Source: Botryllus schlosseri (Eukaryota). From it: a DNA stretch of 64,000 nt. The notes under the pieces were generated by a model that was given only the letters and a program-made list of their open reading frames with translations, did not search any database and was not told the DNA's origin. The stretch covers positions 4,094,001 to 4,158,000 of the forward strand of contig CM119371.1 in NCBI GenBank assembly GCA_051294905.1, written 5' to 3'. The position numbers and the translations under genes are program-made. Positions 5,644 to 59,232 of this stretch are shown here, one piece after another. The first letter of the stretch is position 1. The number at the start of each line of letters is the position of its first letter.

Positions 5644-7753
5644 CATAGTGTCCTATATGGTGTCGAGACAAGCAAATCGCACGGTTCAATGAAATTGTAT
5701 TACGTCACAGTTTCCATTTGGCTACAGGCAATTTGACGGTGATTTTTGACCGGCTTGCCGAGCATTAAATTTGATGAATCGGATATCAATCGAAAGCTGA
5801 CTCTGCATTGATTACGAAAATATAAATTTTATTCCGCTCGCGGCCCTGGAACCCCCACAATCAGCCCCCAATTATTCATTGTCGAGTAGATTGGCAGTGT
5901 GACGCAACAATGCTGTCTGGCGAAACGAGAGACTAGTTCAAGAGCAAGGATGCGGCCGAGCGGCGAGAGTGGGATCAGCTGACGTCGCGGAAATAGCGAT
6001 GTGCAAACGCGCCACAGAGAAACGCTGCGCTGTTGATACTTTTTCTATACGTTTCGGTACAAGCGAGCACACACGAGCCTTTCCTTGACTTGTAAGGGTA
6101 GAACTGGGTCCACAGAATGTATTAGGGCCCTACCAATTTTCGCGCAATATCCTTCAGCTGATAGAGATATGTAGGCTACTTCTAAGTAGTCTACATTGGA
6201 TATGTCAGATTATTATGATATCGATTGCCTTAGCCCGCTTGTTGCGTAGGGCTCCAGAGATGCGTGGCGCTGTTGATACTTTTTCTATGCGCTTCGCTAA
6301 AAGCGAGCATACACCAGCATTTCATTGACTTGTAATGGTAGAACTGGGTCCACAGAATGTATTTGGTCCCTACCAATTTTCGCGCAATCCATCAGCTGTT
6401 AGAGATATTTCTAGTAAGAAAAATATACTTTCAAGTAATATTAAGATTCACTCAAGACAGCAAATTTAGATAATGTAAATATATCATATTGTAGTAATAC
6501 AACTACAGTGTTGAGTTTTCACTCTAGTCCCCATAAGCACCACGTCGGTGACCTTGCCAAATTCCGAGAAGGCGAAAAAGTGCAAACTCTGTTGGGCCGA
6601 ATGGACAATGGACATTAAGTTATTCACAGATGCGAAAAAAATACTGCAAATCCGTTTTACGTAAGTTACATTAGGAATATATATACAGGCTACAGAATGA
6701 ATATAATTCAAATATCTGTGATACCACTGTATTACTTTTGACGCAAAAGGTCCCCGGCATTCAAAAAAACTATTTGGTGATTGAAAAATGCTAAACCAAA
6801 TTCCAACGTCGACGTTTATAGTGATATCAGATATATTCCAGTGAAAAACAAAGGTATGAATTTGGTGGTAACATTTGGAATCATTTGGCAGGTATGGTCC
6901 GCAAGCTTTCTAGTAACGGATTGAATCCGGACAGCGATACCAGTTTAATTCGACACTCCTGCTGTTAAACTTTATTCAACAATCAACATTTTACCTGCTG
7001 CATTCGCGGACCAAGTCCTACCCATACGGATCAAATAAAAGCTTGTAATGTATGCTCATGCTCAATGCTCCTTGCTCACACTTAACCATAAAAGCGACTA
7101 TAGAAAGTATCGACACCCGCCATCAACAGCGCGACGTGTCTCTGGAGCCCTACGCAACAAGCGGGCTAAGGCAATCGATATCATAATAATCTGACATATC
7201 CAATGTAGACTACTTAGACGCAGCCCTATCTTTATCAGCTGAAGGATATTGCGCGAAATTTGGTAGGGCCCTAATACATTCTGTGGACCCAGTTCTACCC
7301 TTACAAGTCAAGGAAAGGCTGGTATGTGCTCGCTTTTACCGAAACGCATAGAAAAAGTATCAACAGCGCAGCGTTTCTCTGTGGCGCGTTTGCACATCGC
7401 TATTGCCGCGACGTCAGCTGATCCCACTCTCGCCGCTCGGCCGCATCCTTGCTCTTGAACTAGTCTCTCGTTTCGCCAGACAGCATTGTTGCGTCACACT
7501 GCCAATCTACTCGACAATGAATAATTGGGGGCTGATTGTGGGGGTTCCAGGGCCGCGAGCGGAATAAAATTTATATTTTCGTAATCAGTGCAGAGTCAGC
7601 TTTCGATTGATATCCGATTCATCAAATTTAATGCTCGGCAAGCCGGTCAAAAATCACCGTCAAATTGCCTGTAGCCAAATGGAAACTGTGACGTGATACA
7701 ATTTCATTGAACCGTGCGATTTGCTTGTGTCGACACCATAATAGGACACTATG
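5644..7753. mobile_element. Foldback element with ~630-bp TIRs (P/Galileo-like, non-autonomous)
   Basis: 5644-~6277 is a near-perfect reverse complement of ~7121-7753; termini CATAG...CTATG; 7-bp TSD ATGTTAC. Truncated relative starts at ~31713. Confidence 0.8.
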
Positions 7754-9153: not shown

Positions 9154-10018
9154 CAGGGGCGGGCAACTTCGCCAGTCGGCGGGCCGGATATAGGAAAATT
9201 AGGTACTTGGCGAGCCGGATTGCTGAATCGATGCATTATTCGCCCATTTATCAACATATACAATGAATAAATCGTATTTAATGAATGTATTTTAACGTCA
9301 GCAATGTCACTTCAAAGCCATTTCTCGCCGATAATGGCGAAGACAATGTGGACTTGAGAATAACATTGTTATAGGCGCTGCCATGTCTGCTTCTCTCTGA
9401 TCATTATCAATCAACACACGGTGCAATCCCTAATTAAGATTTCAAGGCGTTCGATAAGCCCGGTAACCCTGATTTACCAAGTTGACGAGTTCATTAGGGT
9501 TGAGTAGCCTACGTGACGAGATAGCGTCGTTGTTCAACTGTGTGGCCTAGTTAATCTCGATATTGAATTCATGCGGCCCGCGTCCTCTATATACGAAATT
9601 TGAAAAGTGGCCTGCGACCCGTCTATAGTTGGCGACCCCTGGCATAAGCGGTGCCTTACAAAAGCCTAGAAGTGTGCCGTGCTACAAGTCGGCGGTTACA
9701 GAATCTAAAATAAGAAATATCAGCCTTGTGTAAATGACCAATGACCATTGTAGTTAACAAAAATCATGATTACCACAGACGACATTAGGGTTGAGTGCAT
9801 CGTAAATGTCGATAATGCAAGTCTTCTCGCTTCGACGAACTTAGGCATAAGCTCCAGTCTCGCAACGCTGCGCGTGCGCACACACGTATAAAATGACATA
9901 CAGTCACTACAATTTGACGTAGTAAGCAAGTAGTTGGGAATCCCGGCAGACTGGGGCCGCGGGCCCATTATCATGTAAGACGGAAAACTGTCCGCGGGCC
10001 GTATGTTGCCCGCCCCTG
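9154..10018. mobile_element. hAT MITE
   Basis: TIR CAGGGGCGGGCAAC ... GTTGCCCGCCCCTG; perfect TSD CATTAATT; partial relative at ~25560-25790. Confidence 0.85.
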
Positions 10019-11319
10019 CATTAATTGATTCACTCTCAGCTCAAAAGAGAATCAGTTGAACAGCTTGGAGCGATTCCTTTTGCGAACAGAAATGTATTGC
10101 TCCGTGTATCAAGCGTGTCAGGAAAATTCTTCTAAAGTAGAGTCTTGACATGAGTCTTTCCAAGATACAATCTACGTATCGTGGGCGCGCGCCCCGATTA
10201 CGGTTGTATCGGTGTTTTTGTAGCAGTAACGGCAACAATCAGAGGACACAGGATCAGTGGTGTGGTCCTGCATGATAGAAATACATGGTCATTCGCTGTG
10301 GTGCTCAATACAGTCAGAGTTATCACTCAAGTAGAAGTAACTTCACACATTTGTACTCAATTACAAGTTGAAGAAGCGATTTCAAGGGCAGGTGAAAACT
10401 ACTCCCATTTCCACTTCGTAGTTTTCTGTTTCCGAAAACTTCATTTTTATTAATTCAGGCATCGCTACTTATATTCGAGTAGACATTTATGTCATTCTTT
10501 ATACTTCTACTTGAGTAGCAGTGATGATTGCTTTATCATTTCTGTTATTTGATTGATCGAAAAGTTGGAATGCAATGGGGTTCAACATCCCCGCTTTACA
10601 GTGATTTGCAATCGGAAATATTTGCAAATTTTCATTCTTGAAACATTTCCTTTACAAAATATAATCGTAACTCACAAAAGGCGCAGTCAATGTTAATGGT
10701 TGTTTACATGTAGCACGATGTCACTTGACCGAAATACTAACTCCGTTATATTTGGAAATCAAGATTTGAGGAATTATAATTATAACACGAATCTAGATTT
10801 GGATTTGATGTCATAAACATCTTCTGTGATTGGATAGGAAGAGATTCAAGGATCAGGAGAGGCAGATTTGCAGACTAGGACCACTTGAAAATTTTCAGCT
10901 TTATGAAATTATACTACGATTTCAATCACAGTACATCTACAAAGTCTTTTTTCCATATTGAAGTACAATTATAATGATAGCTGCTCAGTAGGGATGTTCA
11001 AAAAAAACTTTTTTCCAAATCTCACTCGCCTAATGACTAAATCGTCAAGTTGTGCAAGAAAACGATGCACACCAAATTTGACTCATTTCCAACCAGTATC
11101 GGCCGTGCAATCTTGAATTGAAATTTTTAAATTATTAAAAAAAATTGAAAAAATAAAAATTCTCAAATTTTTCTGTCAACCATATGAAATTGTTGAGCTG
11201 TCTTCAAAGACGATGCGAAACAAATTTGAGTCAATTCCGACTAGTAGAAGCAGAGTTATTCGAGTTTTCCGTTGATAATTCTCGGATTATCCGTGTTTGT
11301 GATGCTAACTGGGATATTG

Positions 11320-11364
11320 ATGATTGACATATTCTGTCCTTCTGGTGATCATCCGCGAGCAATG
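11320..11364 (-). pseudogene. PLK1: PLK1-like kinase exon fragment (copy D)
   Basis: After a TTCCAG acceptor it reads ALLADDHQKDRICQ, paralogous to the exon at 17653-17802. Confidence 0.55.
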
Positions 11365-11933
11365 CCTGGAATTTAGATACCGGGTAGTGGTTTCAGTTGC
11401 GGATTTTGAAAATTGACTATCTCTAGTTCTAGTTCTATTTGTGATTTTAAAATAATTTATGTTGCCGATCAAACTAAAAAACATGAGTCTTCATTTGTAG
11501 TGAAGCATAACATGATAGATGAACTTTCTTTCGAATTTGACCAGAATTACAATGATAGCTACTCAAGTCTTTCCAGATTAGATTCGAATTCTATTTACCA
11601 GATTCATCAAAGAAATAGTAGAAAAAGTTTACTTGATATCAATTTCCATTTTATTCTCATAAGAACGACAATTGCAAATTCATGTACACCAAGCTTGGCT
11701 CGTTTAGTACGATACAGTTCTCCTGTAGCAATTTGGGTAATACTAGAAATCAGATTGACATTGAAATGAGGACGTAAAAGCATTGTCAAATCGGATTAAC
11801 TAACTAGATTGATTATCGGTATTTGGCTCTAATTAGGCTAATTAGACAAGAATTATCTAGTTCTCCAAGTATGCTAGTAATGAGCATTACAGAGCTGATG
11901 CAATTGTGACCACATCATTATTAGAGACAGTAC

Positions 11934-12456
11934 TGGGGTTGCAACCAAGTCACAAGGTTCCAAGTCACAAGTCAATCTCACTTTTATAGCTTTGACTCGA
12001 GTCATTTTCAATTCCCCACCGAGTCAAGCCTGAGTCCAAGTCAGTGAGTGGAAGGTTGAGTCTGAGTCATGGTGTTATGATCCAAGACCCAGTCCAAGTC
12101 ATTGTGTTCACTCTTCAGTTTTGAGTTCAATCCGGTTCGACCCACTTTGTTCAACTCTGGTCTAGCGATATAGAATTGCTCGCATTCACAATATCGTGAT
12201 TTTCCTCAGCCCTTACAGTTTCTTGGCCTAATTTCCAAGTATCAGGACTTATAGACGAAATACCAATCATGTGGTGGCTGTACTAGCCTTCGAAGTTACA
12301 TTGAAATTTCGGTCTTGGCCGTCCTAGTCTCGAGTCATATGACTTGGTTCGAGTCATGCACAATTAATCGAGTACAAGTCGCGTCAGTACATGAATTGAC
12401 TCGAGTCAAGTCGGGTCACTAAAAATACCGACTATGATCGAGTCATTACAACCCTG
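11934..12456. mobile_element. hAT MITE (CAGGGTTGTAA family), older inverted copy
   Basis: Ends TTACAACCCTG; GACTC-rich; reverse-complement similarity to 35112-35705. Confidence 0.7.
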
Positions 12457-12488
12457 GATATTACAGTTTTAACAAGTTAATGTTTTAC

Positions 12489-12624
12489 CTTCTTTTGCAC
12501 TACTCGAGAACGATGTCAACAAAATCCTTGTCCAGGAAGAATATGTAAAATCCAACGACGTGTTTATGAACGAAACTGCAATGGAGGTGATCTCTTGACC
12601 TTTTGTCCTTCTGATGATCATTGC
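12489..12624 (-). pseudogene. PLK1: PLK1-like kinase exon (copy C), degenerate
   Basis: With indels reads ...HQKDK...HKHVVGFYIFFLDKDFVDIVLE*CKR followed by a GT donor; compare PLK1 [27 protein letters not shown]. Confidence 0.7.
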
Positions 12625-13379
12625 CTGAAATTGAGACTCGTGCAAATAAAAAATCCAGTTACGTTACGAGCAACTAACTACGCCATTCTCTGACTGTAGC
12701 TCTATTTGTAATTGTAGACTTGGAAACGCAAGTAATTCTAGATTCTTGTTGTGGCTACATATTTTGGAGAGAGTGATTCTATTGCCGCACAATTTGATAA
12801 TCCAGTATGTCGCCTTGCCGGCCAACCATGTACACCTAGGGTACAGAAAAAATGCATCAAGTTATCAAATGGGAAGTTTGTGGCTAGGACTAGACACAGC
12901 GATTCGGATATTCGAATCTCAGTTGAGTATTCTAATGATTGGAGTCGAGAAGTAAGACATGATTTTGTAGGTCTGAAATGATACGTTCGTTGCCATCAAG
13001 ATGAAATTTATCGAATTATAGTTTTGATATTATTTTCCGCTGTGGAACCCATGAAATATAGATTGGCCATATCGCACCATACGAAACATGTAGTACCAAG
13101 ATACGCACTTTAGTGGAAATGACATATATGTGAAGTCGTGATCAATACACAGCATTGTGACAAAATGCAATGAACTAGTTATGCATAAAAGTACCAAATT
13201 ATCCTTAAACTGATGTAGAACCGTCATAATATGCTTTGTGCTCGAGTAAAAGGTACGTAGTTGAACTTTCTACATATTTCATATTGAGTGAGCTCGGAAC
13301 GAATCAAAATACTCGATTTTGTCCAGACTTACTCATTCATTAAAGTCCCGCATAAATGTTATTATATATACTCAAAAAA

Positions 13380-15937
13380 GACAACTAAACGATTAGGTCT
13401 CCACTCTGAAACTGTGTGCCTTCTTGCCTAGAACTTCCGAGTAAATATAGTTGGATGTGCCGCAAAAATAATTCTTTCTTTTGGTCGGCAAAGTCGGCTT
13501 TGGTGGCTAGGTCGAAATTTCCGAATTTCACGACCATGCTATTGTTTAGGAATAGATATCCAGCTGTCAAGAAAAAAATCACATACAGTTACACAAGTAG
13601 GCATACATGAACTTGTGTAAACTAACAAACTGCTTAGATGACGGTCAACTAACTATTGCTAATTTGAGTAAGGTCTAGTTCCAGTTAAAGATGCGATTTG
13701 TGAAGTTGCGAGTTTTAAGAACTAAGCCTGTACCCATGCATAGTACGCACCCTGCATTCACAGTACATGAATAGCTGTGGTTCAGTATACCATGTCGTTC
13801 TGTTTTGCGATGTCTCTGTTCAACAATCATGACATAACGATCGCTAATCATTATGCAATTAACAACATTGTCTCTAAACCGTGTTAGATAGCAGCCAAAG
13901 CCTGCAAGGCTGGCGACGACATACTTCAGGCCAACGAGACGACATCTTGAGCACGAGGCCTATTACAGATGCGATTGCTAATCATTATACCATTAACGGC
14001 ATTGCCTCTAAACGAAAGTAGATAGCAGCAAATCCTGCGAGGCAGACGACGTGATAGTTTAGGCCAGCGACACGACATCTTGCGCACGAGGCCTATTACA
14101 GATTCGATTGCCCAGGCCAACGATTACGTCGTGCGCTCCAGATCTTTTCGAGATACGACTGCTTACGCAAGCGATTATACCTTGCGCGCATGGCCTGTTA
14201 TATATGCGATTGTTCAGGCCTGTCGTTGACGCGATGAGTAAGCGAGGGTTGCCGCGCGCGCGTGTAGCAATGCTCGTGCTCAATGACCCAATTAATTTCG
14301 CTCGCGTAAAAACGGCAAACTGACTCAGCAGGAGACCGCGTGCTGTGCTCAGGGATAACCCTGGCTGAGCTGCTCGTTTTGCAACACGTTTCTCGCTAAT
14401 TCTCACAGTAGTTTGTACAATTCTGGCACCACTGCAAGCAATTTTACCTCCATATCTTTGTGAGTGATCTTACAAACATGAAGATAAACAACTCCAAGCA
14501 GAATCTGTTGCTTGTAATAACGAGTCTCTGGTTCTGTGATGACGTGTCTTCTTTTGCAAACTTCATCAGCGACTGATCAACAAAAATCAATTGTAATTGG
14601 ATTGATAGATTGACAATATTATTTGCCGGAAAATCTAAATCAGTGGTTCGAAACCTTCTGGGGCTAGCCGGCTGGTAAAATTCAAGAACAAATTTTGCAG
14701 ACCCAGTGAACCGTCCAAATTAGAAAATTCATTTCAGGCTGCCGTTTTGATATCAGTGTTGTCAATACGTAGGGAAAAATTGAATACCTGAGTGATTCCA
14801 TTCAGAATACAGTGTTTGGCTTCGAGTCGAGTATTCGAGTATCACTCATTATGACATCGAAGCAGTATGAATGAGTTAGAAATTTCACATATGTACCTTC
14901 TATGGGACCACAAACAATATATTGATCCAGATTTGATTATGGTACGGTACTGAGATCATTGTTCCCAGTCCTAGTGATAATAGCTTTATTTTCGATATTT
15001 CCAAACTAGATTACAATTAGAATGATAGCTACAATTTTTATTCCAAATTACATTACGATCTGGACAAAATCTTTGTCTTAAAAAAATCCATGAAATTCAG
15101 TGACGTGCTTGTGATTCACACTGCTATGGAGACTGATCTCTCGACTTATTTTGTCTTCAAGATGCTCATTCACAAGTACTACCTGAAGCTGAAATTCACA
15201 CGAAATTGATGCTTGTAATCAAAGCGCGGCCCATCATGAGTTCACCAATAATATCGTACTGATATCAGACTTTGGGAGAAATATCGGTTTCAGCCGTGAG
15301 GGAAAAGATATCGGCATTATCCATGACATCACAGAATGGTAGTAGGGACTCAGAGAACTATCATCTGTGACTGCTACACTGGGAACATTAACATATTTTC
15401 TACAGCTTACAAGTGTCCGGGTGCATCTTTTCTAGTTTGTTTCATGTAATGTCCACGCATAGAAATGACTGTAAAGTTGCTCCATTTTCGGAAATTTGCC
15501 CACGCTAGAACAATATCGAGGTTATGGACGAAGGTGCTATGGGTATCGGTTTTATCGGCATTGGCTTAAAATCCGAAATTAGTCGGACTATAGTTACAAT
15601 AGGCATGACTAAAATGGCAATTTGCAAGTCCTTAATCATATTTGTTGAATATTCACAAAAATTCCATTAATGAATGCGACAGATATAGTCGCTCCCGTGG
15701 ATGATTCGAATCTGTCAATAAACTTGGCTCACCATTGCTACAATTTTACAAGCAAAAGCTTGTTTTGTTCCGACTTCTGTGATTTCAAAAGCAGTTTGCA
15801 AATCCTCTTTTGCCAAGATATCGACCTCCCGTGTATCGTTTCTCAGTAGAGTCACTCATCATACAAGACTTGATGGATCTCTTTAGTAGTGAAATCTACT
15901 TTTTAATATATTACCTTGAAATCAAATCCAAATTAAT
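13380..15937 (-). pseudogene. PLK1: PLK1-like kinase pseudogene (copy A), four exons
   Basis: Exons 15937-15733 (KRYTGGRYLGKRGFANCF..EITEVGTKQAFACKIVA), 15182-~15050 (EDKISREISLHSSVNHKHVTEFHGFF*DKDFV), 14572-14448 (RRHVITEPETRYYKQQILLGVVYLH..ITHKDME) and 13563-~13380 (LFLNNSMVVKFGNFDLATK..CGTSNYIYSEVLGKKAHSF); AG/GT boundaries, stops and frameshifts. Confidence 0.85.
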
Positions 15938-16237
15938 CTGCAAAATAAAATATCGCACATTAGCGCACTGGCATCAGACACGCACAAACTACTCGAGTAG
16001 CAAAATCAACAATTAGATCTCGAACTAATGACTTTTAAAAATTTACAATTAACTGAAACACAACTACATAAATACATTTTATCAGAATCAGATTGGCTTC
16101 CCACACGAACAACAAAATTACTGAAGAATAAGACCGACAGACCTACCAGAATACAGGATAAACTAGGCAATTACCGACTAGCAATAACAAATTTCCCGTA
16201 AACAACGTCAAAATTATCATAGTCAGGTATTTGTTAC

Positions 16238-18530
16238 CTCGATATCTCTGTGAATGGTCTTACAGTCGTGACGATAAATGACATCCAACACAATCTGTTG
16301 CATGTCATAACGAGACTCTGGTTACATGATGGCGCGCCTTCTTTTGTAAAATGCCATCGGCGACTAAAAACAAATATCAAAGATAATTGGATTTCTAGAA
16401 TGAGAACAACAATATTATTTGTTGGACAATTCTATATTGGTGATTTTCAGGCTGTATTAACAACAAATTTTGCAGAGTTGTGAACCTTTCAAATTAGATC
16501 GTTTAATTAATACTGGTTTTCTGATAGACGTGTAATAGGCCTATGTAAGGCTGGGCGCGGTTCTGAATCAAGTATTACTTTTAACGCAGAGCGACTGTTT
16601 GTTGTTGTTGTTTTGTGTGTAATCTGACTCTATGAAGGTTAGGCTACTTTTGAGTCGTTGAGTCGTATATCTTTCCTTTGACGGAACGGTGTCCCGAGCC
16701 GCAGGGTTCGTTGGATGACATACCACGAAGCCTGTCTAGTGCACACGTATTCGAAGATCACACGGACAAATATTTTGCTTCTGTCTACACGACTTGCAAA
16801 TTTATTGAATCAAAGTACGACTGGGTAACAGTATCCCAGAATCATGAAATTGAATTTAATGTTTCTACGTGGTATTACACGCGTATATATCATAGCCATG
16901 AGAGATTACGAACAAAATATCGTAGCATGTATTTGCATGTATCTATATTTCACACGATATATAACCGAATCACGGAGGTCTTATCGGATTTTCACTTCAT
17001 GGAATTAGGTAAGGTTTTATAAAATCCTCATTGATCAAATATTAAAATGGCGTTAACGATATATCTGGTTATATACTCATTTTGTCGTCACGCCAGCATG
17101 ATCATTGATCATGTGTTAGTAAATTAACTCTGTTCAGTTCGGTTTAGTTTATTGTTAATCCTTTATCCTCTTGTAGCAAGGATCGTGTCATTTCAGTACT
17201 CAAAAAATGTTTGTCTCGCTACTCGACTCGAATGACTGTGCCCAGTCCCAGTGATCAAAGCTGTGTAATTGATAGTTTTTCCAAATTAGTTAAGAATTAG
17301 AATTACTTGATTCACTAAGAAGATGCAGCAAAATCTAGTACAGTGCATATCATATCTGAGTTTATTCTTATAAGCACGAGAATAGCAGATGTCTGTGCAG
17401 TGAACATACACCAAGTTTTGCTCGTTTTTCCCGGTACAATTCTCCTGTAATATTTTCACAGACAGCAGATTAGAATTAAACATAGGGCAAATAAACATTT
17501 GACAAATTGGGTGGAATTTAATTATCGCCATTCCTCTATAATTAGTCTAAGACCTCAAAAAATATCTAGTTGGCAAAGCCTGTTAGTAATGAGCGTGGCA
17601 GAGCTGATGAAATTGCCAAGGTATCACAGTTGTATCAAAGAAATACTTTTACCCTTCTTTTGCACAATTCCAGAACGATATAGGAAAAATTCCTGTCTTT
17701 GAAAAATCCATAAAATCGAACGACTTGTTTGTGACTCAAACCGCGATGGAGACTGGTCTCTTGACACATTTTGTCTTTATGATGCTTATTCACAAGAAGT
17801 GCCTGATATTAACGCCAAATTATTGATCACATTTACTGCCTGGCCCGTGATACGTTCGCCAATAACATCGTGTCGATGTCACGCTTTGAAAGATATACCG
17901 GCATCGGCAATGAGAGGCAAAAAATATCGATAATTTCTGCGTGGCCACAACGTGCTCATAAAAACAATGCGACTGCAACACTGGAAATATTGATAGATTC
18001 CTTATATTTTCCAAGTGTCCATATACAGCGTTTGTAGTTTTTTTTTTAATGTCCAGGTATAACAATGACTGTGAAGCTGTTATTTTTTGAAAATGTGGCC
18101 AAATCTTGGAGAATATCAAGGCTATCAGTGAAGGTGCTTGGTATCAGTTTCATTGGTATCGGCTCAAAAACCCGAAATCCAGTTAGCTCTAGTTATACAA
18201 AGCATGTAGAAATGGCAACCTCCAAGTTCTTGACCGTATTTGTTCTCACAAGAGTATTTACAAATGGTGTTAGAGCATGAGACAAATATAATCATTCACG
18301 CAGATTTTAAAGTGTCGATAAAGACGTCTCACCTTTGCCACATTTTATCAAGCGAAAGCTTGTTTTGTTTCGACTCCAGTGATTTGAAAGCATTTGGCAA
18401 ATCAGCTTTTGTCAAGAAATGGACCTTGCGTGTATAGTTCCCAGAAAGTCATCACACATCAATTCGGAGATCTCTTTCGTCGCAAGGTATACTTTTTTAG
18501 ACATAATCGTGAAATCAAATCAAAATCAAT
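16238..18530 (-). pseudogene. PLK1: PLK1-like kinase pseudogene (copy B), three exons
   Basis: Exon 18530-18333 (ATG at 18504, MSKKVYLATKEISE..YTQGPFLDKS*FAKCFQIT), exon 17802-17653 (ALLVNKHHKDKMCQETSLHRGLSHKQVVRFYGFFKDRNFSYIVLELCKRR), exon 16363-16238 (SPMAFYKRRRAIM*PESRYDMQQIVLDVIYRHDCKTIHRDIE); all flanked by AG/GT. Confidence 0.85.
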
Positions 18531-19336
18531 CTGCAGAATGAAATATCGTACATTAACATGCTGGCACCAGACTTACACAAACTACTGGTTGCTCAAACAG
18601 CACAACTAAATCAGATCGAACGACATTTGAAAATCAGTGACTAACGAAAACACAACTCAATGGATTTGATTCCAAAGCAACTCATTCATTATATTTTATC
18701 GGAATCAGATTGACTTTCCACATTTACATCAGTAAAATCTTACTGAAGAATCAGATTGACAGAACTACCACTATACAGGATAAACTAAGCAATTACTAGC
18801 TAGCAATGGCTGCAAGAACATCACACAAACAAAACCGATCTTAACGATATTCAAGAAATGTACAACGCTTGTTAACAAATGTACATCAATACACAAAAAT
18901 GTATACCGATATGGGTCCCTTTCATATTGACCAGTGGTAATGCAATAGGCTGCATGAGTATCATAAAATGTACATGGAAAATATGTGAGCTCATACAGTA
19001 TGATAGCCAAGAGAGATGTAGTAGTACGTTCACTCTTCAGGGCAATCACTTGGCACTGGCACTGCTAGCAGTTACTCGATCATAACCAGCTCCAGACGTG
19101 AAATATACGTAATTCGGCATCTGTATGAATATGCAACGCGAATTTCGATAAGTTACCAAGTATGCCTTCTTACATGAGCAAATTGGTGATTGATCAGGTT
19201 CTAGGCAAAATTGAGTTTTTCATTGAAAGAACACTGGTACTGGAGGTCATTTCGAATACTTCCGACCTTTTTTCACTTGATTGAGACCTTGCGTGACTTT
19301 TGAACAAAACATGTTAATCCATATGATACTTGATGT

Positions 19337-21361
19337 CAGGGCTGTTGAGTCGGTAAATTTTACCACCGACTCCGGCTCCGACTCCACACATTTTCAATAT
19401 ACCGACTCCGACTCCTGAGTCTTTAAACGTACCGACTCCGACTCCTGGGTCTTTAAACGTACCTACTCCGACTCCCGACTCCGACTCCGACTCCAGCATT
19501 ATAACCAATTTACCTCGAAAATTATATGCCACATTGTCGGTTGAATGACTATCATACAACCATTAAACATATGCAAACATATGATTAACTGTGGCATGCT
19601 GAATTGTTTCATTGTGGCACAGCTCGAATTATCCACTATGCAATTAACATGAAATAAAGATTTGCTAAATATCCTTCCTCATTCAAGTTTTTATAACATG
19701 GACTCTCTAATATCCTGAAATGTATGAATCATTCAAATATGGCAGATATCCAATCCTGTATGATAAAAATGTAGATAAAAAATCCAAGTGTAGCTCTTGT
19801 GTACGACTCAGCAACTAATAAAGAGATTGAACTTACTAATTTTGTCATTACACACTATCCTGATTACAAGCACAAACACTCTTACTACTAGCAATAGAAA
19901 TTGGTCATAAATGGAATTTAGTTAAGTAATCAAAGACCATAGCCTATGTCTAGTCTACATGTACTTAATCAAGTATTCAAGGATTGGGACTTGCAGTCTT
20001 TCTTAATCATTTGTTCGACCCAAACAGCTAATCTACACTACAAATATTTTTAATTTTGTCAAATGGGAAGCATCGTTTGGTCATATTTACATATTTTTAC
20101 AATTTTACAAAACCAGCCGATGCATTTTCTCTGTCACAGTATCATGGTATAATTCCAAAAATTGCATCAATTTTGACTGCATCGGGAAAACGCATCTTGC
20201 GATTTTCTTCCCCTCTGCAACTGAGTTGTAATTTGCAAGTAATGTCTTTTATCTATATCAGGGGTGGGCAACTTTTTCGGCGAAAGGGACACCTGAGATT
20301 TACGAACCATCGCGCGGGCAACGGGAATGTTGATAACCTTTTTTTAGTCGTCGATAGGAGCGAACCGAATTATGAAACATTGCAAACAAGATTTATATTA
20401 CTACGCTCTAAAATTGATAACATTATGTCATCCAACTGTGCAGTGCGCAATCAGGCCCTGGTCACGCGAAGCGCGAATTTTTTTTGCAAGATAACGACTG
20501 AATTAGGCTATAGCTATATCAATAAATATGTCGCTAACATACATTGGGGGTCGCATCTGTATACCACTGGGCTCATTTGGCAAGGACAGGATTATTCGAG
20601 GTTTAGACATAGCAAAATCGACGGTATCAGTGAACATGCCTCTATCATTTTGTGCAAATGTTTTGTCGACGATCTCGCTGCGAGTGCACAAGCGAAGCCG
20701 TATCTCCTAATTGCGAATATAGTTAGACTCAATTCTGTGAAGAATATGTATTTATAATTTTCAAAAGGGGGATCAAATACTGAATGCAAGACATCTAGTG
20801 ACAATGAATCATGCGAAGTACCGAGAAAAATTTCAAGTCAAATAAATCTGCTATGAAATATTCTACTTCATGGTCATATACGAAGATCTGGGATAAATGT
20901 GACTGACCCCTGGATACGTCAATGCCTCAGAACTGTTGTTTTAGTCATCATCAAATTTCTCGGTCATGCTAATCAAATTTTGGTTGGCCTTGCAATTGTA
21001 CCTGATGTTATAAATAATTTCGAGAATTACCTCGCAGGCCACACCTAACCTTCTCGTGTGCCAAATTTGGCCTGCGTGCCACGGGCTGGCTGCAGCTGAT
21101 CTGTATGGTTAATAATAACAGTGATTGGTGGTACATAAAAATTATATTGAAAATTCTTTGAAAGCAAATGTTTTCATGATAGAGAAGTTGGAGTCGGAGT
21201 CGGAGTCGAAATCATAGTCATTCTCACAAACTCCGACTCCGACTCCAGTCAGTATTTTCCCACCGACTCCGACTCCAGCTATTACAGTTTTCACGACTCC
21301 GACTCCATCAAGCGAAAATTACCCCGACTCCGACTCCACCGACTCCGACTCCACAGCCCTG
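19337..21361. mobile_element. ~2-kb composite non-autonomous hAT element, copy 1
   Basis: TIR CAGGGCTGT(G/T)GAGTCGG ... CCGACTCCACAGCCCTG; (GACTCC)n subterminal arrays; near-identical to 40456-42537 and 43293-45362; nested MITE at 20259-21098 (TSD ATCTATAT/ATCTGTAT). The outer TSD is imperfect in this copy. Confidence 0.85.
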
Positions 21362-21464
21362 CTTGGCCGTTTCAGAAAGTTTCACGTTCATGATTTTTGA
21401 TTATCAGCATGCAGAACTGTATGACGCTTGCAGGTAATCTTCTTAGTAAATGCTTTTCCACATA

Positions 21465-21904
21465 CCGTAATCTTCCATGTATAATGCACATTACGCATTG
21501 GTATCAGTTTTGAAAAAATCTTTCTCGAAATAAAACTTGAAATCACACCTTTCTACATGTTTGCTGTCAATCCCGCATCACATTCAGCCACCGTGCCCAG
21601 TAACTCGTATTAGAAGTGTTGTGCGCTGCCAATTAACGAGGAGCGCGGTGCTGCACACGAGCGCTGGAGATCGTCGTACTTTATAGCATCAACGACAGGC
21701 CCGAACAATCGCATCTCCAACAGGCCAGAGAGCAAGATATAATTGCTGGCCGAAATAGACGCACCTCCAACAGGTCTAATATAGGCCTGATCGTTGGCCT
21801 GATCAATCGCATCTATGATAGGGATTGTGTGCATGATATCGTTGCAGGTATGAACTATCGCGTCGCAAGCCTCGCAGGGGCGTATTATACATGGGAAATT
21901 ACGG
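21465..21904. mobile_element. TA-targeting MITE (Tc1/mariner-pogo type) inserted in a zinc finger
   Basis: TIRs CCGTAATCTTCCATGTATAA ... TTATACATGGGAAATTACGG flanked by TA (21463-64, 21905-06); internal sequence related to ~13920-14300. Confidence 0.85.
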
Positions 21905-23536
21905 TATATCACAGTAACGAATTTTGGTGCCAGCATGTGTAGCCATATGATGCCTGAGGGTACCCTTCTGAGTGAATGCTTTACCACACATAGCACATAT
22001 ATGATTTTTGATGCCAGCATGCATATCCATATGAAGCTTGAGGTGACCCTTTTCAGTGAATGCTTTACCACATACATCACAAACATGATTTTTGATGCCA
22101 GCATGCATATCCATATGATGCTTGAGGTTACCCTTCTGAGTGAATGCTTTACCACATATAGCACATATATGATTTTTGATGCCAGCATGCATATCCATAT
22201 GAAGCTTGATAGTACCATTCTGAGTGAATGCTTTACCACATATAGCACATGAATGATTTTTGATTCCGGTGTGCTTATCCATATGCAAATTGAGGTGACC
22301 CTTTTCAGTGAATGCTTTACCACATATAGCACATGCATGAGTTTTGATTCCAGCATGCTTATCCATATGAACCTTGAGGGTGCCATTCTCAGTGAATGCT
22401 TTACCACATATAGCACATGCATGATTTTTGATTCCAGCGTGCTTATCCATATGCAACTTGAGGGCACCTTTATGAGTGAATGCTTTACCACATATAGCAC
22501 ATTCATGATTTTTGATGCCAGCATGCATATCGATATGCAACTTGAGGCGAACCTTCTCAGTGAATGCTTTACCACATATAGCACATACATGATTTTTTAT
22601 TCCAGCATGCACATTCATATGACGCTTGAGGTGACCCTTCTGAGTGAATGCTTTACTACAAATAGCACATGTATGATTTTTGTTTCCAGCATGCTTATCC
22701 ATATGCAACTTGAGCGTACCCTTCTCAGTGAATGCTTTCCCACATATATCACATACATGATTTTTGATGCCAGCATGCACATTCATATGAAGCTTGAGGT
22801 GACCCTTCTGAGTGAATGCTTTACCACATATAGCACATGTATGATTTATGATGCCAGCATGATTGTCCATATGCAACTTGAGGGTACACTTCTGAGTGAA
22901 TGCTTTACCACATATAGCACATTTATGATTTTTGATGCCAGCATGCATATCCATATGAAGCTTGAGGTGTCCCTTCTCAGTGAATGCTTTACCACATACA
23001 GCACATACATGATTTTTGATTCCAGCATGCACATCCATATGACGCTTGAGGTGACCCTTCTCAGTGAATGCTTTACTACATATAGCACATGTATGATTTT
23101 TGTTTCCAGCATGCTTATCCATATGCAACTTGAGCGTACCCTTCTCTGTGAATGCTTTCCCACATATATCACATACATGATTTTTGATGCCAGCATGCAT
23201 ATTCAGATGAAGCTTGAGGTGACCCTTCTGAGTGAATGCTTTACCACATATAGCACATGCATGATTTATGATGCCAGCATGATTGTCCATATGCAACTTG
23301 AGGGTACACTTCTGAGTGAATGCTTTACCACATAAAGCACATTTATGATTTTTGATGCCAGCATGCATATCCATATGAAGCTTGAGGTGTCCCTTCTCAG
23401 TGAATGCTTTACCACATACAGCACATATATGATTTTTGATGCCAGCATGCATATCCATATGACGCTTGAGGGTATTTGTCCGAGTGAATGCTTTACCACA
23501 TACATCACATTCAACATTGTTGATGCCAGCATGCAT
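21899..23536 (-). CDS. C2H2 zinc-finger protein exon, 19 tandem fingers
   Basis: 28-aa repeats CxxCGKAFTxKGxLKxHMDxH with AGIKNH linkers; upstream exons not identified; present stop codon is supplied by the MITE. Confidence 0.9.
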   Translation of the reverse strand: MHAGINNVECDVCGKAFTRTNTLKRHMDMHAGIKNHICAVCGKAFTEKGHLKLHMDMHAGIKNHKCALCGKAFTQKCTLKLHMDNHAGIINHACAICGKAFTQKGHLKLHLNMHAGIKNHVCDICGKAFTEKGTLKLHMDKHAGNKNHTCAICSKAFTEKGHLKRHMDVHAGIKNHVCAVCGKAFTEKGHLKLHMDMHAGIKNHKCAICGKAFTQKCTLKLHMDNHAGIINHTCAICGKAFTQKGHLKLHMNVHAGIKNHVCDICGKAFTEKGTLKLHMDKHAGNKNHTCAICSKAFTQKGHLKRHMNVHAGIKNHVCAICGKAFTEKVRLKLHIDMHAGIKNHECAICGKAFTHKGALKLHMDKHAGIKNHACAICGKAFTENGTLKVHMDKHAGIKTHACAICGKAFTEKGHLNLHMDKHTGIKNHSCAICGKAFTQNGTIKLHMDMHAGIKNHICAICGKAFTQKGNLKHHMDMHAGIKNHVCDVCGKAFTEKGHLKLHMDMHAGIKNHICAMCGKAFTQKGTLRHHMATHAGTKIRYCDIP

Positions 23537-24272
23537 ATCTATAAGATGCTTGAGGTAAATATTCCCGGTAAATGCTTTCCAGTTTCCAATATATATCGAA
23601 TTGGCGTTCTTTCAAGTCATGAACAATAGTTAATACTGGATCCACAGAATGCTTTTCTTTATGACACTAAGGAAAAGACCCACAGATTTTCAGCAGTTCA
23701 GCATATAAACTTAGTACAATTATAGTATGACCACATCTGCAATGCATGAAAGTGTAAAACTAATTTAAACAAGGACCATTATAAGATTGTAGACAGAGCA
23801 ATCACGATACCGGGATAGAGTACAACATACAAAACTATCAATTACATGGAAATGACTGCAGCAACGAGAGTGTAAAAATCATTATAATACATTGTAAGGT
23901 ACCGGTAGTCTTATTGTTTCATTTAGTCGAACATCATCAATATTGGACTGGTATATCAAGTTTCGATCATTTTAGTTACAAATCATAATTAACACGAGAA
24001 AAAACACAACGACAGTAGCGCACGTCGGTGTATATCTGCAAATGAATTAGAGAAATTTTCATATAACCACAAAAAAGATATATCTGTTACCATGAAAATT
24101 GAGCAGCTTCAATGAATATGCCTTGAAGTAGTTTGCTCAGTATTAAAGTTCACATTAACAGTGTTACATTTACTTTTATATAGGCTGAAAAGAAAAATAT
24201 TCCTGCTAGTTTGTAGCTTGTCTTTCCTGTCAGAAGCACTGCGTCACCACAACGCCTATGGTAAGTGATAAG

Positions 24273-25144
24273 TAGGGCGATTTTTATTTGACATGTCAAA
24301 AAAAGTCAAAATTAGGTCAAAATTGTAGCGTTAGGTCAAAATTGTTTACAAAGTCAAACATTTTTAGACCTCTGCATTTCGTTTGTATCGTAGATTTTGC
24401 GCTGTCGGTGAACTTATCATTTGATATTTTACAGCTTGTAGCCTTCTTTATAGGCCTACTGTTTAAACGGCCCATCGTCTGCTCATTGTGAATCATAAAC
24501 GGTCAAATGAAACAAACAGTGACATGGTTTTATGGTCGACGTACCGCAATATCCTAACTGAAGCAAGACTGCTTGGACATTGCATGATTGCTATATCAAG
24601 AAGCGCAAGCTGAAAAATTGTGATATAGACAACATTGTCAGAATGAAGCAACACGGTGTGTTACCAGCAGTGTGCACACAACTTCAGTGTTGTCAGCCAA
24701 CAACTGCTGCTGTTGAACGTTCTTCCTCCATTCTTGGCAAGCTACTAAGTAAGGACAGATATTTTCAACCCGAGAACGTAGGAAAGTATCTTTCGTTCGT
24801 TGTACTACAACAAATATTAATTATTTCCACCAAAATACGGGATGTAACTACTGGAATTCTTCATAGAGCCAGATTTTGTTAAAACACTAGTTTTTCATGT
24901 AAAAACTTGTCCGTGTTTGAGCAAAAAACGTTTTTTCAGGCCAATCTACTTTGTAAGGCCAAACAGTTCCAACCAGAAATGAAGATAAGTAGTACAATTT
25001 TAACATTACGTGCGAAAACACCTAATTTGCATACGTGAGGTCAAAATTTGGTCAAATTTCAGTTTTTTTAGGTAAAAAAAAGTCAAAATTTAAATTTTTT
25101 AGGTCAAAATCTTCCGTTTTTTAGGTAAAAAAAAAATTGCCCTA
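24273..25144 (+). mobile_element. hAT-like deletion derivative with transposase C-terminal remnant
   Basis: TAGGGC...GCCCTA ends; TSD GTGATAAG/GTTATAAG; ORF 24580-24882 contains QPTTAAVERSSSILGKLL (dimerisation-domain-like ERxFS motif). Confidence 0.7.
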
Positions 25145-26725: not shown

Positions 26726-29017
26726 CAGTGATGAGCGGAGTCTGCTTTTCGAGACTCCGAGTCCCTCCGACAACTTTGGTCTCTGAGGCAAAGTCCCTCC
26801 GACTCCGAGATAACCCGAAGAATCTTGTCCAGTCCCCGAAATATATTCAGACCATTGTCGAAGAATCCCAATCGATGTTTTCGATAGCCTGTCTGATATT
26901 CATACCAGTTTTTTCAGTATCCGTGAATTGCCGAACAGTCGCAACATTACTTCTGAGAGTCAAGTTCTCTCCAACAAAATGGACAGTCAAGCTAATAGAA
27001 CTGCGACCCTTTAGATCGGTCCACATATCTGTGGTGATGCCAGCCAGCCCATAACACTTAATAGCAACTCTTAGTTCCTCTGACAGCTTCTGCTTCAAAG
27101 ATGAAGCCTCCTCATCGAACTTACGTTTCACCGTAAATCTGGATAGCAAAACGTCTTCTGCACAACACCAGTCACCACGGCAAACCGGCACTTCTTCGGT
27201 ATTCTCCACCCGGCGATCAGTGTTCCCCATGATCACCTTCTCCTTTGATTACTCGCTTACTTGCATTTCAACTGCGATCAATTCTTCTTACAAGCTTCGA
27301 TATGTCTTCGAAGATGCGACGTACCACTTGTCAACTTGTGATGCTTTAGCTGAACATTGCAATTTTGACATCTCGCAAACCCAGTATACTGGCCGTTATT
27401 ATCATGCAGCATCAGAGTGAAATCCTTCCACACGTCATTTTTTTTCTGCGTCTTAGTGAGTAACCCACTTGACGTCGACGGTGCTTCAGCCATTATATTA
27501 AAACGACGAAGGAAGACCAGTCAGTTCGAACTAACTACCACTAACACCACCGAAATCGATGATCACATCACGGGTTTCAGTAAATTAAGTTCCGTATCGC
27601 CATGAAACAGTTGATGGAACTGCACTGTACTAAACATACATGATGCATCACTCACGCACCGATCGACGCTCCTTGAAGTTGACTAAATGACTAGTGACTT
27701 CCAATTTTGAAGCTGATACATGATATCTGGAATTTGGAGTCTGTGACAGACCAGCAGCAGAAACTTGATTGCGGTGCTGATTTTTCATATCACATCAAAG
27801 TCATTTCTCAATCAAACCAAACATTACATGACGAAAATTCAGAAGAGTTCTGGATGACTGACTACGTCAATCAATATTGAAGGAAGCGTAGTTGAGTTGA
27901 TGCGAGCAGAGCAAAGCAGACGGTTGTAATTATTTAGTGTGGCTGTTCAGAAATTCGGAATATTCTGTTTTTACTGGGTAAGATCAGCTTACCTTAGTGA
28001 TTTATGTATTGTTGAAATCTTTAGAGCGGGCTTAGATGCTGGTATGCCTCTGTGAGCGGATCTTACTAGCGAAAATTCGTCGCAATGTCATTAAATCATG
28101 TAACACATTGCATAAGTTATTATTGTTTCCATCCAGATACTTGCTTGTTGTATGTATATTTCTCACAGATATAAAGGTAATATTGATGTAACACTTATTA
28201 TCGATATCTCTCACTGCAAATTGCAAGTACGATGAAAGTTGCGAAAAGTTATCACAAAAGTGGTATCGGATATTATCTTGTTTCAACTGATACCAACGTT
28301 GGGAATACATTTTCACAAAATGGACCTATTACTATATTGAATGTCATCAGGATAATGGGATATATTCCGTTATGATCATCAACTTGCTGGAAGAATCAGG
28401 GTAGCCAAAGGCTGTACCATAGGGAAGCCCCGCTGTATGTTGCTGATTGTAAATGTTTCGCACAATTACTGGGGTAGCATGAAAATTAGTCACGAAACAA
28501 ATACGCAAGGAGGAATATGATGTGACTATAGAAGACTGCAATGACAGCAACGTGGAAGATTCTGGAGATCTTATCTCACAATATGGTGACATTCAGCAGT
28601 GGATTCAAAGACTGCATCTCATTGCAGGGAGAAAATGATGCGCTGCGAACGATATTGGGTGTCTTCAAGTTTGTGAACTACAGACACTGCTCCGCGGAAA
28701 TGCCTTGCTAGATCACTAGGTTACTCTCCAGTCCCCAATTGCAGTGCAGATGGCTGATTTTTATGCACTTGTCAATCATTTTTGCATGTTACCGGTCATA
28801 TTACAACTTTACAAGGTGTCAACTGTCTGTGTTTTGGTTTGTAATCAATAGTGTCTTCTGGTCAAAGCTATCGAAAGATATCGGGGGCAAAACTAACAAT
28901 ACTCCGTAAAACTCCAGAAAAATATCTGTTGTAAACTCCGACTCCACTCCGGGTATCAAAAAATTGGCAAAACTCCGCTCCGACTCCACTCCGACTCCGC
29001 TCCGGTGCTCATCACTG
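26726..29017 (-). mobile_element. hAT element with internally deleted transposase
   Basis: TIR CAGTGATGAGC ... GCTCATCACTG; perfect TSD CATTGTAC; GACTCC subterminal repeats. Confidence 0.9.
26847..27493 (-). pseudogene. hAT transposase N-terminal remnant
   Basis: BED finger (VWKDF..ARCQNC..GTSHLRRHIEAC) and first catalytic Asp motif (GITTDMWTD..ISLTVHFV); broken frames, truncated. Confidence 0.85.
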
Positions 29018-31302: not shown

Positions 31303-32570
31303 ATGAGGCAGAAGATCCAGCCACGGTGCCGATGCATTGGATTAGCAAATAGGTGGATTTAACGGATAAAGCGGGGTTGGGTATGGGAATCTTTGTGTCT
31401 TGTACAAACTACCGGATTCTCAAAATTTGCAACGACAACTGAAATTACTCAATTTTCAAATTCCACAACTAGAACTAGCACTGCTCACTTTTCACTATGC
31501 GTAACTTAACTGAAACTACCGTAATTTGTCATGTATAATACGCCCACATGTATGATACGCATTATAAAAATGACAGGTAGATTATGGGGGGAAAAGCCAA
31601 CACCCTGCATTTGCATCACATGGAGAGTACATGCGTAAATGCTGATTATAAAAGATTCTCGTATTGATAAATCAACGCGTATGAAAACTAAGCAGCGATG
31701 GGTATGTTTTATCATAGTGTCCTATATGGTGTAGAAACAAGCAAATCTCACGGCCCAGTGAAATTGATCTACGTCACTCTTTCCATTCGGCCATAATTGA
31801 TGTGTGGCCGGCTGGCCGAGCATTAAACTTGATAAAACGGGTATCAATCGAAAGCTACGACGGTACCGATTGCGAAAATATAAATTTTAATCTGCTCGTG
31901 GTCCTGGAACCCCCAAAATCAGCATCGAATGTTGCATTGTAATGGCATTAGGTATTGTGACGCAACCATGGCGTCTGAGCAGCTCGGAAGCAAGTCCGCA
32001 CAAGAGTAAGTGTGAATGCTCAATCGGTTGCGCAACAATCACCAATATGCTTGCGGTCGCGCTGCTCCTCACCTGCTCCCAGACGGCTCGGTTGCGTCAC
32101 TCCTATTTGCAACGGACACTTCTACCTGTATTTGAGTAGAAATGGACGAGTTGATTATACTTGAATAATGCCAAGTAATTTTGACCTGACTTTGAAATCT
32201 CTACTTTTGCTTGTAATTGAGAAGAAAGTGAATATAAATGAACGAAGTTACTTCTGCTGGCAATTGAGTAGAAATGAACTACGTCACTTTTACTTGAGTA
32301 ACACCGGTAACTACTTTGACCACCTACTACTTCTGCTCGCAATTTATATAAATTATGAGGTACCTTCTATTTGACCAGCAACTCTGATTACTTTGATCAC
32401 TTGTGCGAAAGATTTAATATATTTTTTAAACATGCAGGACAGCAGGAACTCACCAAAGTGATTCTGTGTCCTCTGATGGAAGCCGTGACTTACATCGACC
32501 AGCAGCGTAAATTCCTAATCCCAACCTATAACAATATGAATGCAATCAAAGTGTGGCTGTTGGATTGCGA
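31303..32570 (+). pseudogene. PLK1: PLK1-like polo-box exons, degenerate
   Basis: 31303-~31382 after a TTGACAG acceptor: EAEDPATVPMHWISK*VDLTDKAGLG (cf. PLK1 [26 protein letters not shown]); ~32445-32515: TKVILCPLMEAVTYIDQQRKF (cf. [21 protein letters not shown]). Confidence 0.85.
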
Positions 32571-34413
32571 TACAAAGATTGTATGTTGTAAACACTCGTG
32601 TTTGAAGATGAAGACTATACGTGTGATACAACGAGCAATGCATTTGTATCTATTTTCTACAAATTTAATCAGCCGTATCGCAACTCCGTCGTCAAAGCAT
32701 CTCGATGGTGCAGGCGAAAAAGAATATCATATCTCTCTCTCTTGCGGTCAATGGCCCTCAAATTATAACGATTACTTCACCTCGGAGTCAAAAACACACA
32801 AGTACAACTCACGCACGTCAACGAAGAACAACAGCTACCATATGGTCAGGACGGAATACAGGAAAACGCATTGGTCTATCTAGTATGCCGGACGCCGATT
32901 GTTGAACAGCATCTAGCCGGCTATCCGACAGTCGTCGAGCATGTCCACATTCAAGTCGAAATACAAGCAATTTCCTCCAAATGAATACTAGCCAGCCTTC
33001 AGCATTACCGGACCACGACTTACCATCGACCTCGCCCTCCGCCACACGCCACCTCATTTTGTCGCTTGCGTCTTATATTCGTGACCTCCTATATTTGCTA
33101 TGTCAAAATATATTAAAATCAGCAATGTATTGAACTGAAGGACGCACACTATTTCACATTGGTATTTCTTTACTGGCAATAAATAATTTTCGCCTGCGGG
33201 ATGGCATTCGCCGGGTAGGCCATTTAAACTTCTCTGGACATTGGACAATCAAACATCGAAGTTTTCGGTCTGCACGAGGACATTCCTTCTCGTCTAAAGT
33301 CTTCTCGCTGCTGATCAGTCTGGTACACTTCTCGGACGCCTAAGTGCCCATTTCTAAAAATCATGCATATTTTTGTTGGGGGAAGAGTAGGCCTACCCAA
33401 GTTACGATATTGGGCAACATGAATGAAAATTTTGAAAAAGTTGCAGAACTTAATACAAAAAAACTTTATAATTTATGTCAATTCACGAAATAATTTTGGG
33501 TGCCCTTCGAGCTCGGGCCCCCCAATTGGGTGTTTGGGGTGCGGCAGTTACGGTCCTTGTCTTATCGCATCGTACATTGTGTGTGTCTTGTTCAGATGAA
33601 AATATAATCTGATGATTTATTGATTAGAGGTCGACCGATTACCGACTTGGCCGATAATCGAGACCGATATTTGGATCTTTCACGATTATCGATATTTTAT
33701 ATATAAAAAAAATCGACGACGCGAAGGATGATACGTGACAGATTTACCCTTGCAGAACGAATTCAACTTGATGACCATTGACCATGCAAAGAAACTATAT
33801 AATTCCTACATTACAATCTACCTCCACTAGACTGATCTTTAATTCTGTATCACGTTTTGCTTTTTGGGTTATCCCATATTTCAATGAATGTGAACAATTA
33901 GGCAATAATTATTTTTAATTTCAGTTTTCTCGTTTGTTATTCAGTGGCATGTACAGGTGTCATTTTGCCTAATATATAATATTTTTATCGAAATGGTTCT
34001 CTGCTCCTTCCATATTATTGTCGACCTATGATATCAGTTATCGGCCTTGTGAGTGTAACGATAATCGGTATCACTATAGGCCTGCAAAATTCAATATCGA
34101 TCGATCTCTATTATACTGATATCGTGCTCACTGCTCAATCCCGGTGCTGGTTTACGCGGTCAATGGGTGTCATGGAGGTGTGCCTGTAGCCTGTGCCGGA
34201 TTGTAAAATCGATATGCGGCACTTCCGAAGGTCATACAAAAGCGCGCGTGTAGTAATAACAGTAGCACAGACATTATTTCCTCGTATTTTGGGAAATAGT
34301 CGGTCAGTACTAGTCAGGCTCAGCCAGATAGCTTAGCATGTGGTATGTTTTGTATTGGCGTAATAATAATACTTTGTATGATTCAAGCTGCCAGAATACT
34401 AGAATCCCGTCTA

Positions 34414-59227: not shown

Positions 59228-59232
59228 AGTTC

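What the first reader, a model, noticed from the sequence alone, without database searches (positions are those of the whole stretch)
11320..18530. Hidden tandem array of at least four decayed, intron-containing PLK1-like genes
Seen: manual minus-strand translation recovers Polo kinase subdomains in exons with AG/GT boundaries (copy B three exons, copy A four exons, copies C and D single fragments). Copies A and B share intron positions and intron similarity (~15240-16190 vs ~17840-18800), and carry different stops and frameshifts. Established: PLK1 is normally a low-copy essential mitotic kinase. Inference: DNA-level tandem birth-and-death of a PLK1 subfamily, possibly a lineage-specific expansion with functional relatives elsewhere.
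Basis: partly seen in the sequence, partly recalled or inferred. Interest (0 to 1): 0.7.

Follow-up and report, generated by a model that had tools for sequence, protein, structure and literature searches.

The report
Decayed PLK1 gene fragments in tandem
This stretch of a sea-squirt-type genome holds broken, intron-containing pieces of the cell-division kinase gene PLK1 that were copied at the DNA level long ago and have since decayed, which is ordinary pseudogene debris apart from splice signals that look better kept than expected.

Summary
Observation essentially confirmed: nine PLK1-like exon copies lie on the minus strand at 18530-11293, with AG/GT edges, and copies A and B share intron positions and intron sequence (69% over 1187 nt). 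They are not four genes. They are two 5' partial copies (3 and 4 exons) and two orphan copies of the second coding exon. About 270 of 570 reference residues are found nowhere in the window. The nearest proteins are styelid-type ascidian PLK1s. A versus B evolved neutrally (pN/pS 0.89, neutral simulation 0.89) and share substitutions at invariant catalytic positions, so that duplication copied a dead or crippled gene. Other pairs show a mild purifying signal. The one open exon is expected by chance. One oddity: 17 of 17 comparable splice dinucleotides survive (post hoc P about 0.004). Earlier scan notes report the same debris 0.1-2.3 Mb further along this genome, beside zinc-finger genes (unchecked). 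No genome or RNA data were available. Verdict: unprocessed pseudogene fragments, a known kind (Daphnia POLO-F to K); low interest.

The parts
18531..18807 (-). Upstream non-coding block of unit B, homologous to 16185-15938 of unit A; start of the ~2.6 kb duplicated unit
   Evidence: p-distance 0.22 over 239 aligned nt
18333..18530 (-). Copy B, first coding exon (start codon 18504; G-loop, subdomains I-II); net -2 frameshift, stop in the G-loop, stops or an indel pair at the subdomain II lysine
   Evidence: (66 bits)
17653..17802 (-). Copy B, second coding exon (50 codons, subdomains III-V); the only open exon
   Evidence: PLK1 E 1.8e-13; 100 bits
16238..16363 (-). Copy B, third coding exon (to the catalytic loop); one stop; catalytic-loop Lys changed to Glu
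   Evidence: 73 bits
15938..16185 (-). Upstream block of unit A, starting about 50 nt after the last exon of B (head-to-tail junction)
15733..15937 (-). Copy A, first coding exon; start codon lost, one stop, +4 and +1 insertions
   Evidence: 65 bits
15051..15182 (-). Copy A, second coding exon; stop; 3' end, donor and ~350 nt of intron deleted
   Evidence: (77 bits)
14448..14572 (-). Copy A, third coding exon; -1 frameshift; same catalytic-loop Lys to Glu change as B
   Evidence: 75 bits
13740..14400 (.). Repeat-derived insertion in the intron of copy A (approximate ends; part similar to 21649-21878)
13375..13563 (-). Copy A, fourth coding exon (subdomains VII-IX start); DFG and APE motifs altered, two frameshifts, one stop; donor not found
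   Evidence: (91 bits)
12489..12624 (-). Copy C: lone second coding exon, four small deletions and a stop; downstream intron homologous to B's, upstream intron not detectably so
   Evidence: 71 bits
11936..12418 (.). Dispersed repeat inserted in the intron after copy C (other copies at 35221-35703 and 37013-37487)
11566..11906 (-). Intron after copy C, homologous to 17615-17274 of copy B
   Evidence: 234/326 identical
11293..11365 (-). Copy D: 5' half of the second coding exon, frameshift, stop, truncated
   Evidence: protein score below control
10120..10267 (-).
   Evidence: 25.5 bits
31303..31380 (+). Exon for the start of Polo-box 1, one stop, AG/GT intact
   Evidence: (54 bits)
32438..32600 (+). 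Terminal Polo-box-2 exon, insertion, frameshifts and stops
   Evidence: POLO_box E 3.8e-4, below cut-off; 51 bits
55724..55905 (-). Terminal Polo-box-2 exon, two stops and a -1 frameshift
   Evidence: 56 bits

Best explanation
These are unprocessed pseudogene fragments of a PLK1 gene in a repeat-rich zinc-finger gene region of an ascidian-type genome. A PLK1 copy with its introns came to lie there (inferred). A ~2.6 kb unit holding the upstream block and the first three coding exons was duplicated head to tail (shown: unit A begins about 50 nt after B's third exon). The template was already crippled or truncated (inferred from shared changes at invariant residues and neutral divergence since). 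Further duplications, deletions, inversions and transposon insertions left lone exons in both orientations (pattern shown; mechanism, probably unequal crossing-over between repeats during growth of the zinc-finger cluster, inferred). The pieces make no kinase and no Polo-box domain and are decaying at about the intron rate.
For: 13 of 14 exon copies counted (13 firm ones plus one unconfirmed linker candidate) carry stops or frameshifts (tallied by eye). Residues 214-365 and 393-~504 of the 570-aa reference are absent above noise in both strands. A vs B: pN/pS 0.89 over 133 codons, neutral median 0.89, P 0.50; differences are spread evenly over codon positions, 0.26/0.24/0.21, and exon distance 0.28 lies inside the intron range 0.26-0.37. 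A and B share Glu at the catalytic-loop Lys and a first-base change in the second G-loop Gly, both 100% conserved in 173 reference proteins; all four second exons lack a Lys that is 98% conserved. One open 50-codon exon is expected: P(0 lesions) 0.08, P(at least one open exon of 14) 0.80. No Rfam match.
Against: Eight other pairs have pN/pS 0.36-0.87, all at or below their neutral medians; A-C P 0.014, p55-p10 P 0.044, pools P 0.046 and 0.001 (pools chosen after seeing the data). Splice dinucleotides are kept at 17 of 17 comparable sites, joint P about 0.004. Expression and the rest of the genome are untested.
Confidence: 0.8

Rival explanations
1. Birth and death of a once-functional PLK1 subfamily: several whole, working, divergent PLK1 paralogs stood in this region, died later and were cut up by deletions; some may survive elsewhere.
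For: pN/pS below neutral in pairs involving C, D and the Polo-box exons. Residues shared by all copies but unseen in 173 PLK1s, e.g. position 64 and position 552, point to a divergent source (stem branch 0.11). Functional polo duplicates exist in Daphnia and Drosophila (PMC2680839, PMC3053365; passages read).
Against: A/B is neutral and shares catalytic lesions. No copy holds the C-lobe or most of the Polo-box domain. Low pN/pS between dead copies also arises if one working gene was copied at different times. Finding exons by protein similarity biases pN downwards.
Confidence: 0.2
2. The exons lost coding constraint but stayed in use as spliced exons of a non-coding or read-through transcript, for example from the co-oriented zinc-finger gene 2.6 kb upstream.
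For: 17 of 17 comparable splice dinucleotides kept, against gap-free pairwise background retention of 0.44-0.59. The zinc-finger ORF 23611-21899 lies on the same strand directly upstream.
Against: Post hoc test; the A/B part alone gives P 0.06; a star tree is assumed and some branches may have been constrained. Two donors are deleted and a third was not found. Flanking intron is not better kept than exon. No Rfam family.
Confidence: 0.08
3. The exons were spread piecemeal by transposons that captured gene fragments (Helitron or Pack-MULE style), not by local duplication and deletion.
For: Lone exons with only ~75-130 nt of detectable homologous upstream flank in both orientations; many repeats nearby.
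Against: A/B is a multi-exon head-to-tail unit with full introns. In the self-comparisons I saw no repeat family that brackets the lone exons on both sides; target-site duplications were not searched for.
Confidence: 0.07

Closest known systems
Partial PLK1-like copies POLO-F to POLO-K of Daphnia pulex (PMC2680839; passages read)
   Same: Truncated, rearranged, stop-containing copies in the PLK1 clade, read by the authors as pseudogenes or remnants of partial duplications.
   Different: Six copies there beside three intact PLK1 genes, some with expression evidence; here exon-level fragments in tandem, with status of the intact gene and expression unknown.
Styelid-type ascidian PLK1 (P0293 named Styela clava PLK1-like; unnamed P0283, P0294)
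   Same: Top 3 of 182 proteins scored against the fragments (1547, 1499, 1471; next 1377); the copies fall inside this clade, UFBoot 100.
   Different: Those are intact 570-572 aa proteins with all catalytic motifs; the window's copies are partial and broken.
Drosophila obscura-group polo-dup1 and polo-dup2 (PMC3053365; passages read)
   Same: Lineage-specific polo duplicates; one keeps introns, one lacks the Polo boxes.
   Different: They are expressed in males and judged likely functional; the copies here have no usable ORF.
Unprocessed pseudogenes co-amplified inside C2H2 zinc-finger clusters (recalled example: BNIP3 pseudogenes in the human 19p12 cluster)
   Same: Dead passenger sequence multiplied among zinc-finger genes.
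   Different: Recalled only; searches returned no paper to confirm it.

Membership tests
PLK1/Polo subfamily (origin of the sequence) | Kinase sequence closer to PLK1 than to PLK2/3/4 or other kinases | tested here: met
   PDB best hits for 3 of 3 kinase exons tested; tree with one named PLK2 outgroup, UFBoot 100
PLK1/Polo subfamily (origin of the sequence) | C-terminal Polo-box domain | tested here: inconclusive
   Only the PB1 start and three terminal PB2 exons exist, unlinked to the kinase exons
Functional PLK1 gene | Uninterrupted ORF with complete kinase domain and two Polo boxes | tested here: not met
   304 of 570 residues covered at best, across several copies and both strands; stops and frameshifts
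Functional PLK1 gene | G-loop, catalytic-loop Lys, DFG and APE motifs | tested here: not met
   G-loop Gly and catalytic-loop Lys changed in A and B; DFG and APE changed in A, the only copy that holds them
Unprocessed (duplicated) pseudogene | Introns retained, with homologous intron sequence between copies | tested here: met
Unprocessed (duplicated) pseudogene | Disabling mutations | tested here: met
   13 of 14 exon copies counted
Unprocessed (duplicated) pseudogene | Neutral evolution | tested here: inconclusive
   Met for A vs B (P 0.50); mild deficit of replacement changes in other pairs
Unprocessed (duplicated) pseudogene | An intact parent gene in the same genome | not testable with these tools
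   No genome held
Unprocessed (duplicated) pseudogene | No functional transcript | not testable with these tools
Processed pseudogene | Loss of introns | tested here: not met
   Exons are separated by introns with AG/GT edges

The most novel reading that the evidence does not exclude
The window is the edge of a megabase-scale field of PLK1 exon copies amplified together with C2H2 zinc-finger genes, in which coding constraint was lost but splicing was kept: the exons serve, or served, as spliced modules of non-coding or read-through transcripts (for example regulating PLK1 or the zinc-finger genes), or the field is the fossil of a selected amplification of a divergent meiotic PLK1.
Probability: 0.08. 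Interest if true: 0.6.

Novelty: new member of a known kind. Interest (0 to 1): 0.17.

Why it matters
As it stands it matters little: it is a pseudogene graveyard, useful for annotation (it can yield false PLK1 models and inflate copy counts) and as a neutral clock for the region. If the earlier notes are right that over a hundred such exons span about 2.3 Mb among zinc-finger genes, the scale is unusual for a normally low-copy, dosage-sensitive mitotic kinase. It would then offer a marker for how an ascidian zinc-finger cluster grew. It would matter more only if RNA data show that the kept splice sites are used.

Tried and rejected
A first homolog search with the open exon alone found nothing. 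A short peptide-like stretch at 17445 and 11720 looked like an exon but is intronic repeat: it recurs in opposite orientation at 30889-31020. A candidate linker exon at 29303-~29438 (+) has AG/GT edges and weak likeness but stays below noise; unconfirmed. A candidate subdomain IX-X exon at 29516-29599 (+) scores 21.1 bits, below the control maximum, and overlaps a repeat; rejected. Intron-hosted RNA: no Rfam match at gathering score in the window or at E<=1 in 9900-19400. Assembly artefact: rejected, copies differ by 24-44% with private insertions. Sequencing error: rejected, lesions include many nonsense and invariant-site changes. Shared flank between the 3' sides of the two zinc-finger genes: none. 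Searches held coordinate slips (a few codons of A, B and C; the frame of the 10 kb exon); they were fixed, whose values are used. Alignments A6 and A7 misplaced fragments and were not used for searches. The branching order among the four copies rests on few columns and is not interpreted. Literature searches for a reported tunicate PLK1 pseudogene expansion found none; the library lacks most subscription papers and no supplements were read.

Full report
Setting. The window is animal DNA (GC about 40%) with two tandem C2H2 zinc-finger ORFs (23611-21899 on -, 52592-53977 on +), many dispersed repeats and a Polinton-like block at its end. No whole genome is held and no RNA data were obtained, so everything below rests on the window and on public proteins.

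In transcription order on the minus strand they are B1, B2, B3, A1, A2, A3, A4, C2, D2 (numbers are coding exons). D2 is below the protein control (21.0 bits) but is significant as DNA (47-53 against at most 35 in 300 shuffles). A and B align over exons and introns at 68.7% across 1187 columns, with the same intron positions and AG/GT edges. All three kinase exons and the one Polo-box exon sent to the PDB search hit PLK1 or Polo-like kinase first.

What it is. The unit B runs from about 18807 to just past its third exon, and unit A's upstream block begins at 16185, about 50 nt later: a head-to-tail repeat of about 2.6 kb that holds only the front of the gene. A continues to a fourth exon and stops near residue 213. 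C and D are lone second exons. C keeps its downstream intron (234/326 identical to B's) but shows no detectable upstream intron homology. All copies together cover 304 of 570 reference residues (about a dozen of them spurious run-on into intron); residues 214-365 and 393-~504 are missing on both strands. So this is an array of gene pieces, not four genes.

Lineage. Of 182 proteins of 500 aa or more fetched, the three best matches to the fragments are P0283, P0294 (unnamed) and P0293 (named Styela clava PLK1-like), at 1547, 1499 and 1471 against 1377 for the next and a median of 1284.5. A tree of 32 references and the four copies over about 195 kinase columns places the copies as one clade (UFBoot 98) inside that group (100), within PLK1 and apart from the one named PLK2. 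Only the top 120 hits of each search were seen, so a closer protein may exist.

Dead or alive. Thirteen of 14 exon copies tallied by eye (13 firm, one unconfirmed) have stops or frameshifts, about 0.05 per codon. The open exon 17653-17802 is then unremarkable: P 0.08 for itself, 0.80 that at least one is open. A against B gives pN/pS 0.89 over 133 codons, equal to the neutral simulation median (ts/tv); the open exon against A2 gives 1.24. Differences fall evenly on the three codon positions, and exon distance (0.28) lies within the intron range (0.26-0.37). A and B share no stop or frameshift, but both have Glu for the catalytic-loop Lys and a changed first base in the second G-loop Gly; both positions are 100% conserved in 173 reference proteins. 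The A/B duplication therefore copied a crippled template (inference). A4 has also lost DFG and APE.

Results against the simple reading. The other eight pairs give pN/pS 0.36-0.87; two reach P below 0.05 alone (A-C 0.014, p55-p10 0.044), and two pools of non-overlapping pairs give P 0.046 and 0.001 (pools picked after seeing the data, small codon numbers, ascertainment by protein similarity). Part of the history between those copies was probably under selection. This fits either once-working paralogs or repeated copying from one living gene; the window cannot tell which. Gap-free pairwise background retention is 0.44-0.59, giving P 0.06 for the five A/B pairs, 0.07 for the other seven sites and about 0.004 jointly. 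Left out of that count are two second-exon donors lost in deletions, the fourth-exon donor (not found) and the single-copy exons. The test is post hoc and assumes a star tree. Rfam finds nothing in the window.

Mechanism. Shown: intron-bearing DNA duplication, a head-to-tail partial unit, later deletions and repeat insertions, pieces in both orientations, neutral decay of A and B. Inferred: seeding by a PLK1 duplicate near zinc-finger genes, and repeat-mediated unequal recombination as the engine. The zinc-finger ORF at 23611-21899 is co-oriented, and its 3' end lies about 0.5 kb from the unit-B upstream block once the 2 kb element at 19337-21365 is removed. The second zinc-finger gene faces a Polo-box exon tail to tail, so no fixed cassette is evident here.

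Comparison with what is known. Daphnia pulex has three intact PLK1 genes and six partial, rearranged or stop-containing PLK1-clade copies read as pseudogenes (PMC2680839, passages read). Drosophila obscura-group polo duplicates are expressed and likely functional (PMC3053365, passages read). Searches for a published tunicate PLK1 pseudogene expansion (listings only) found none, within a library that lacks most subscription papers; no supplements were read. Six earlier notes of this scan describe the same kind of debris 0.12-2.3 Mb beyond this window, up to 34 exon copies per window, often beside zinc-finger genes. They are unchecked AI notes and I could not see that DNA.

Verdict. A real but ordinary cluster of unprocessed PLK1 pseudogene fragments; new member of a known kind; interest 0.17. 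The most novel reading not excluded is continued splicing of the dead exons within a large co-amplified field (probability about 0.08).

Noticed in passing
window 57516-64000 (-): Compact block of intronless ORFs that looks like a Polinton/Maverick or adintovirus-type element: integrase with rve and chromo domains at 62827-61748 (Pfam). Protease-, capsid- and packaging-ATPase-like labels for 58082-57516, 59254-57956 and 63998-63558 are recalled from motifs, with no Pfam hit. Tandem 32-nt repeats at ~57000-57220 may mark its end.
   Followed up: partly
window 21899-23611 (-) and 52592-53977 (+): Two tandem C2H2 zinc-finger ORFs (570 and 461 aa stop to stop), about 73% alike, sharing a short upstream stretch (62/86 nt). 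The first seems interrupted near its 3' end by a ~400 nt insertion, with a last finger remnant at ~21500-21390.
   Followed up: partly
window 19337-21365, 40456-42541, 43293-45366: Three copies of a ~2 kb element, 90-92% identical, with hexamer-rich ends; much younger than the PLK1 copies. One sits between the zinc-finger gene and the PLK1 array.
   Followed up: no
window 29303-29438 (+): Possible decayed PLK1 linker exon upstream of the Polo-box-1 exon, with AG/GT edges; below noise in the scan.
   Followed up: partly
window 26850-27480 (-), 24562-24882 (+), 54162-54509 (+): ORF remnants that look like hAT-type or other DNA-transposase pieces (recalled motifs; no Pfam hit); 38310-38810 (-) resembles a GIY-YIG retroelement tail (recalled).
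   Followed up: no
window 5644-6277 and 7122-7753: Inverted repeat of ~630 nt at 97% identity around ~850 nt, probably a recent foldback or MITE-type element.
   Followed up: no
window 18530 and 15937: The first coding exon has an acceptor only 26 nt before the start codon; it could be a 5' UTR intron or a trans-splice acceptor, as is common in tunicates (recalled). No upstream donor exon was identified.
   Followed up: no
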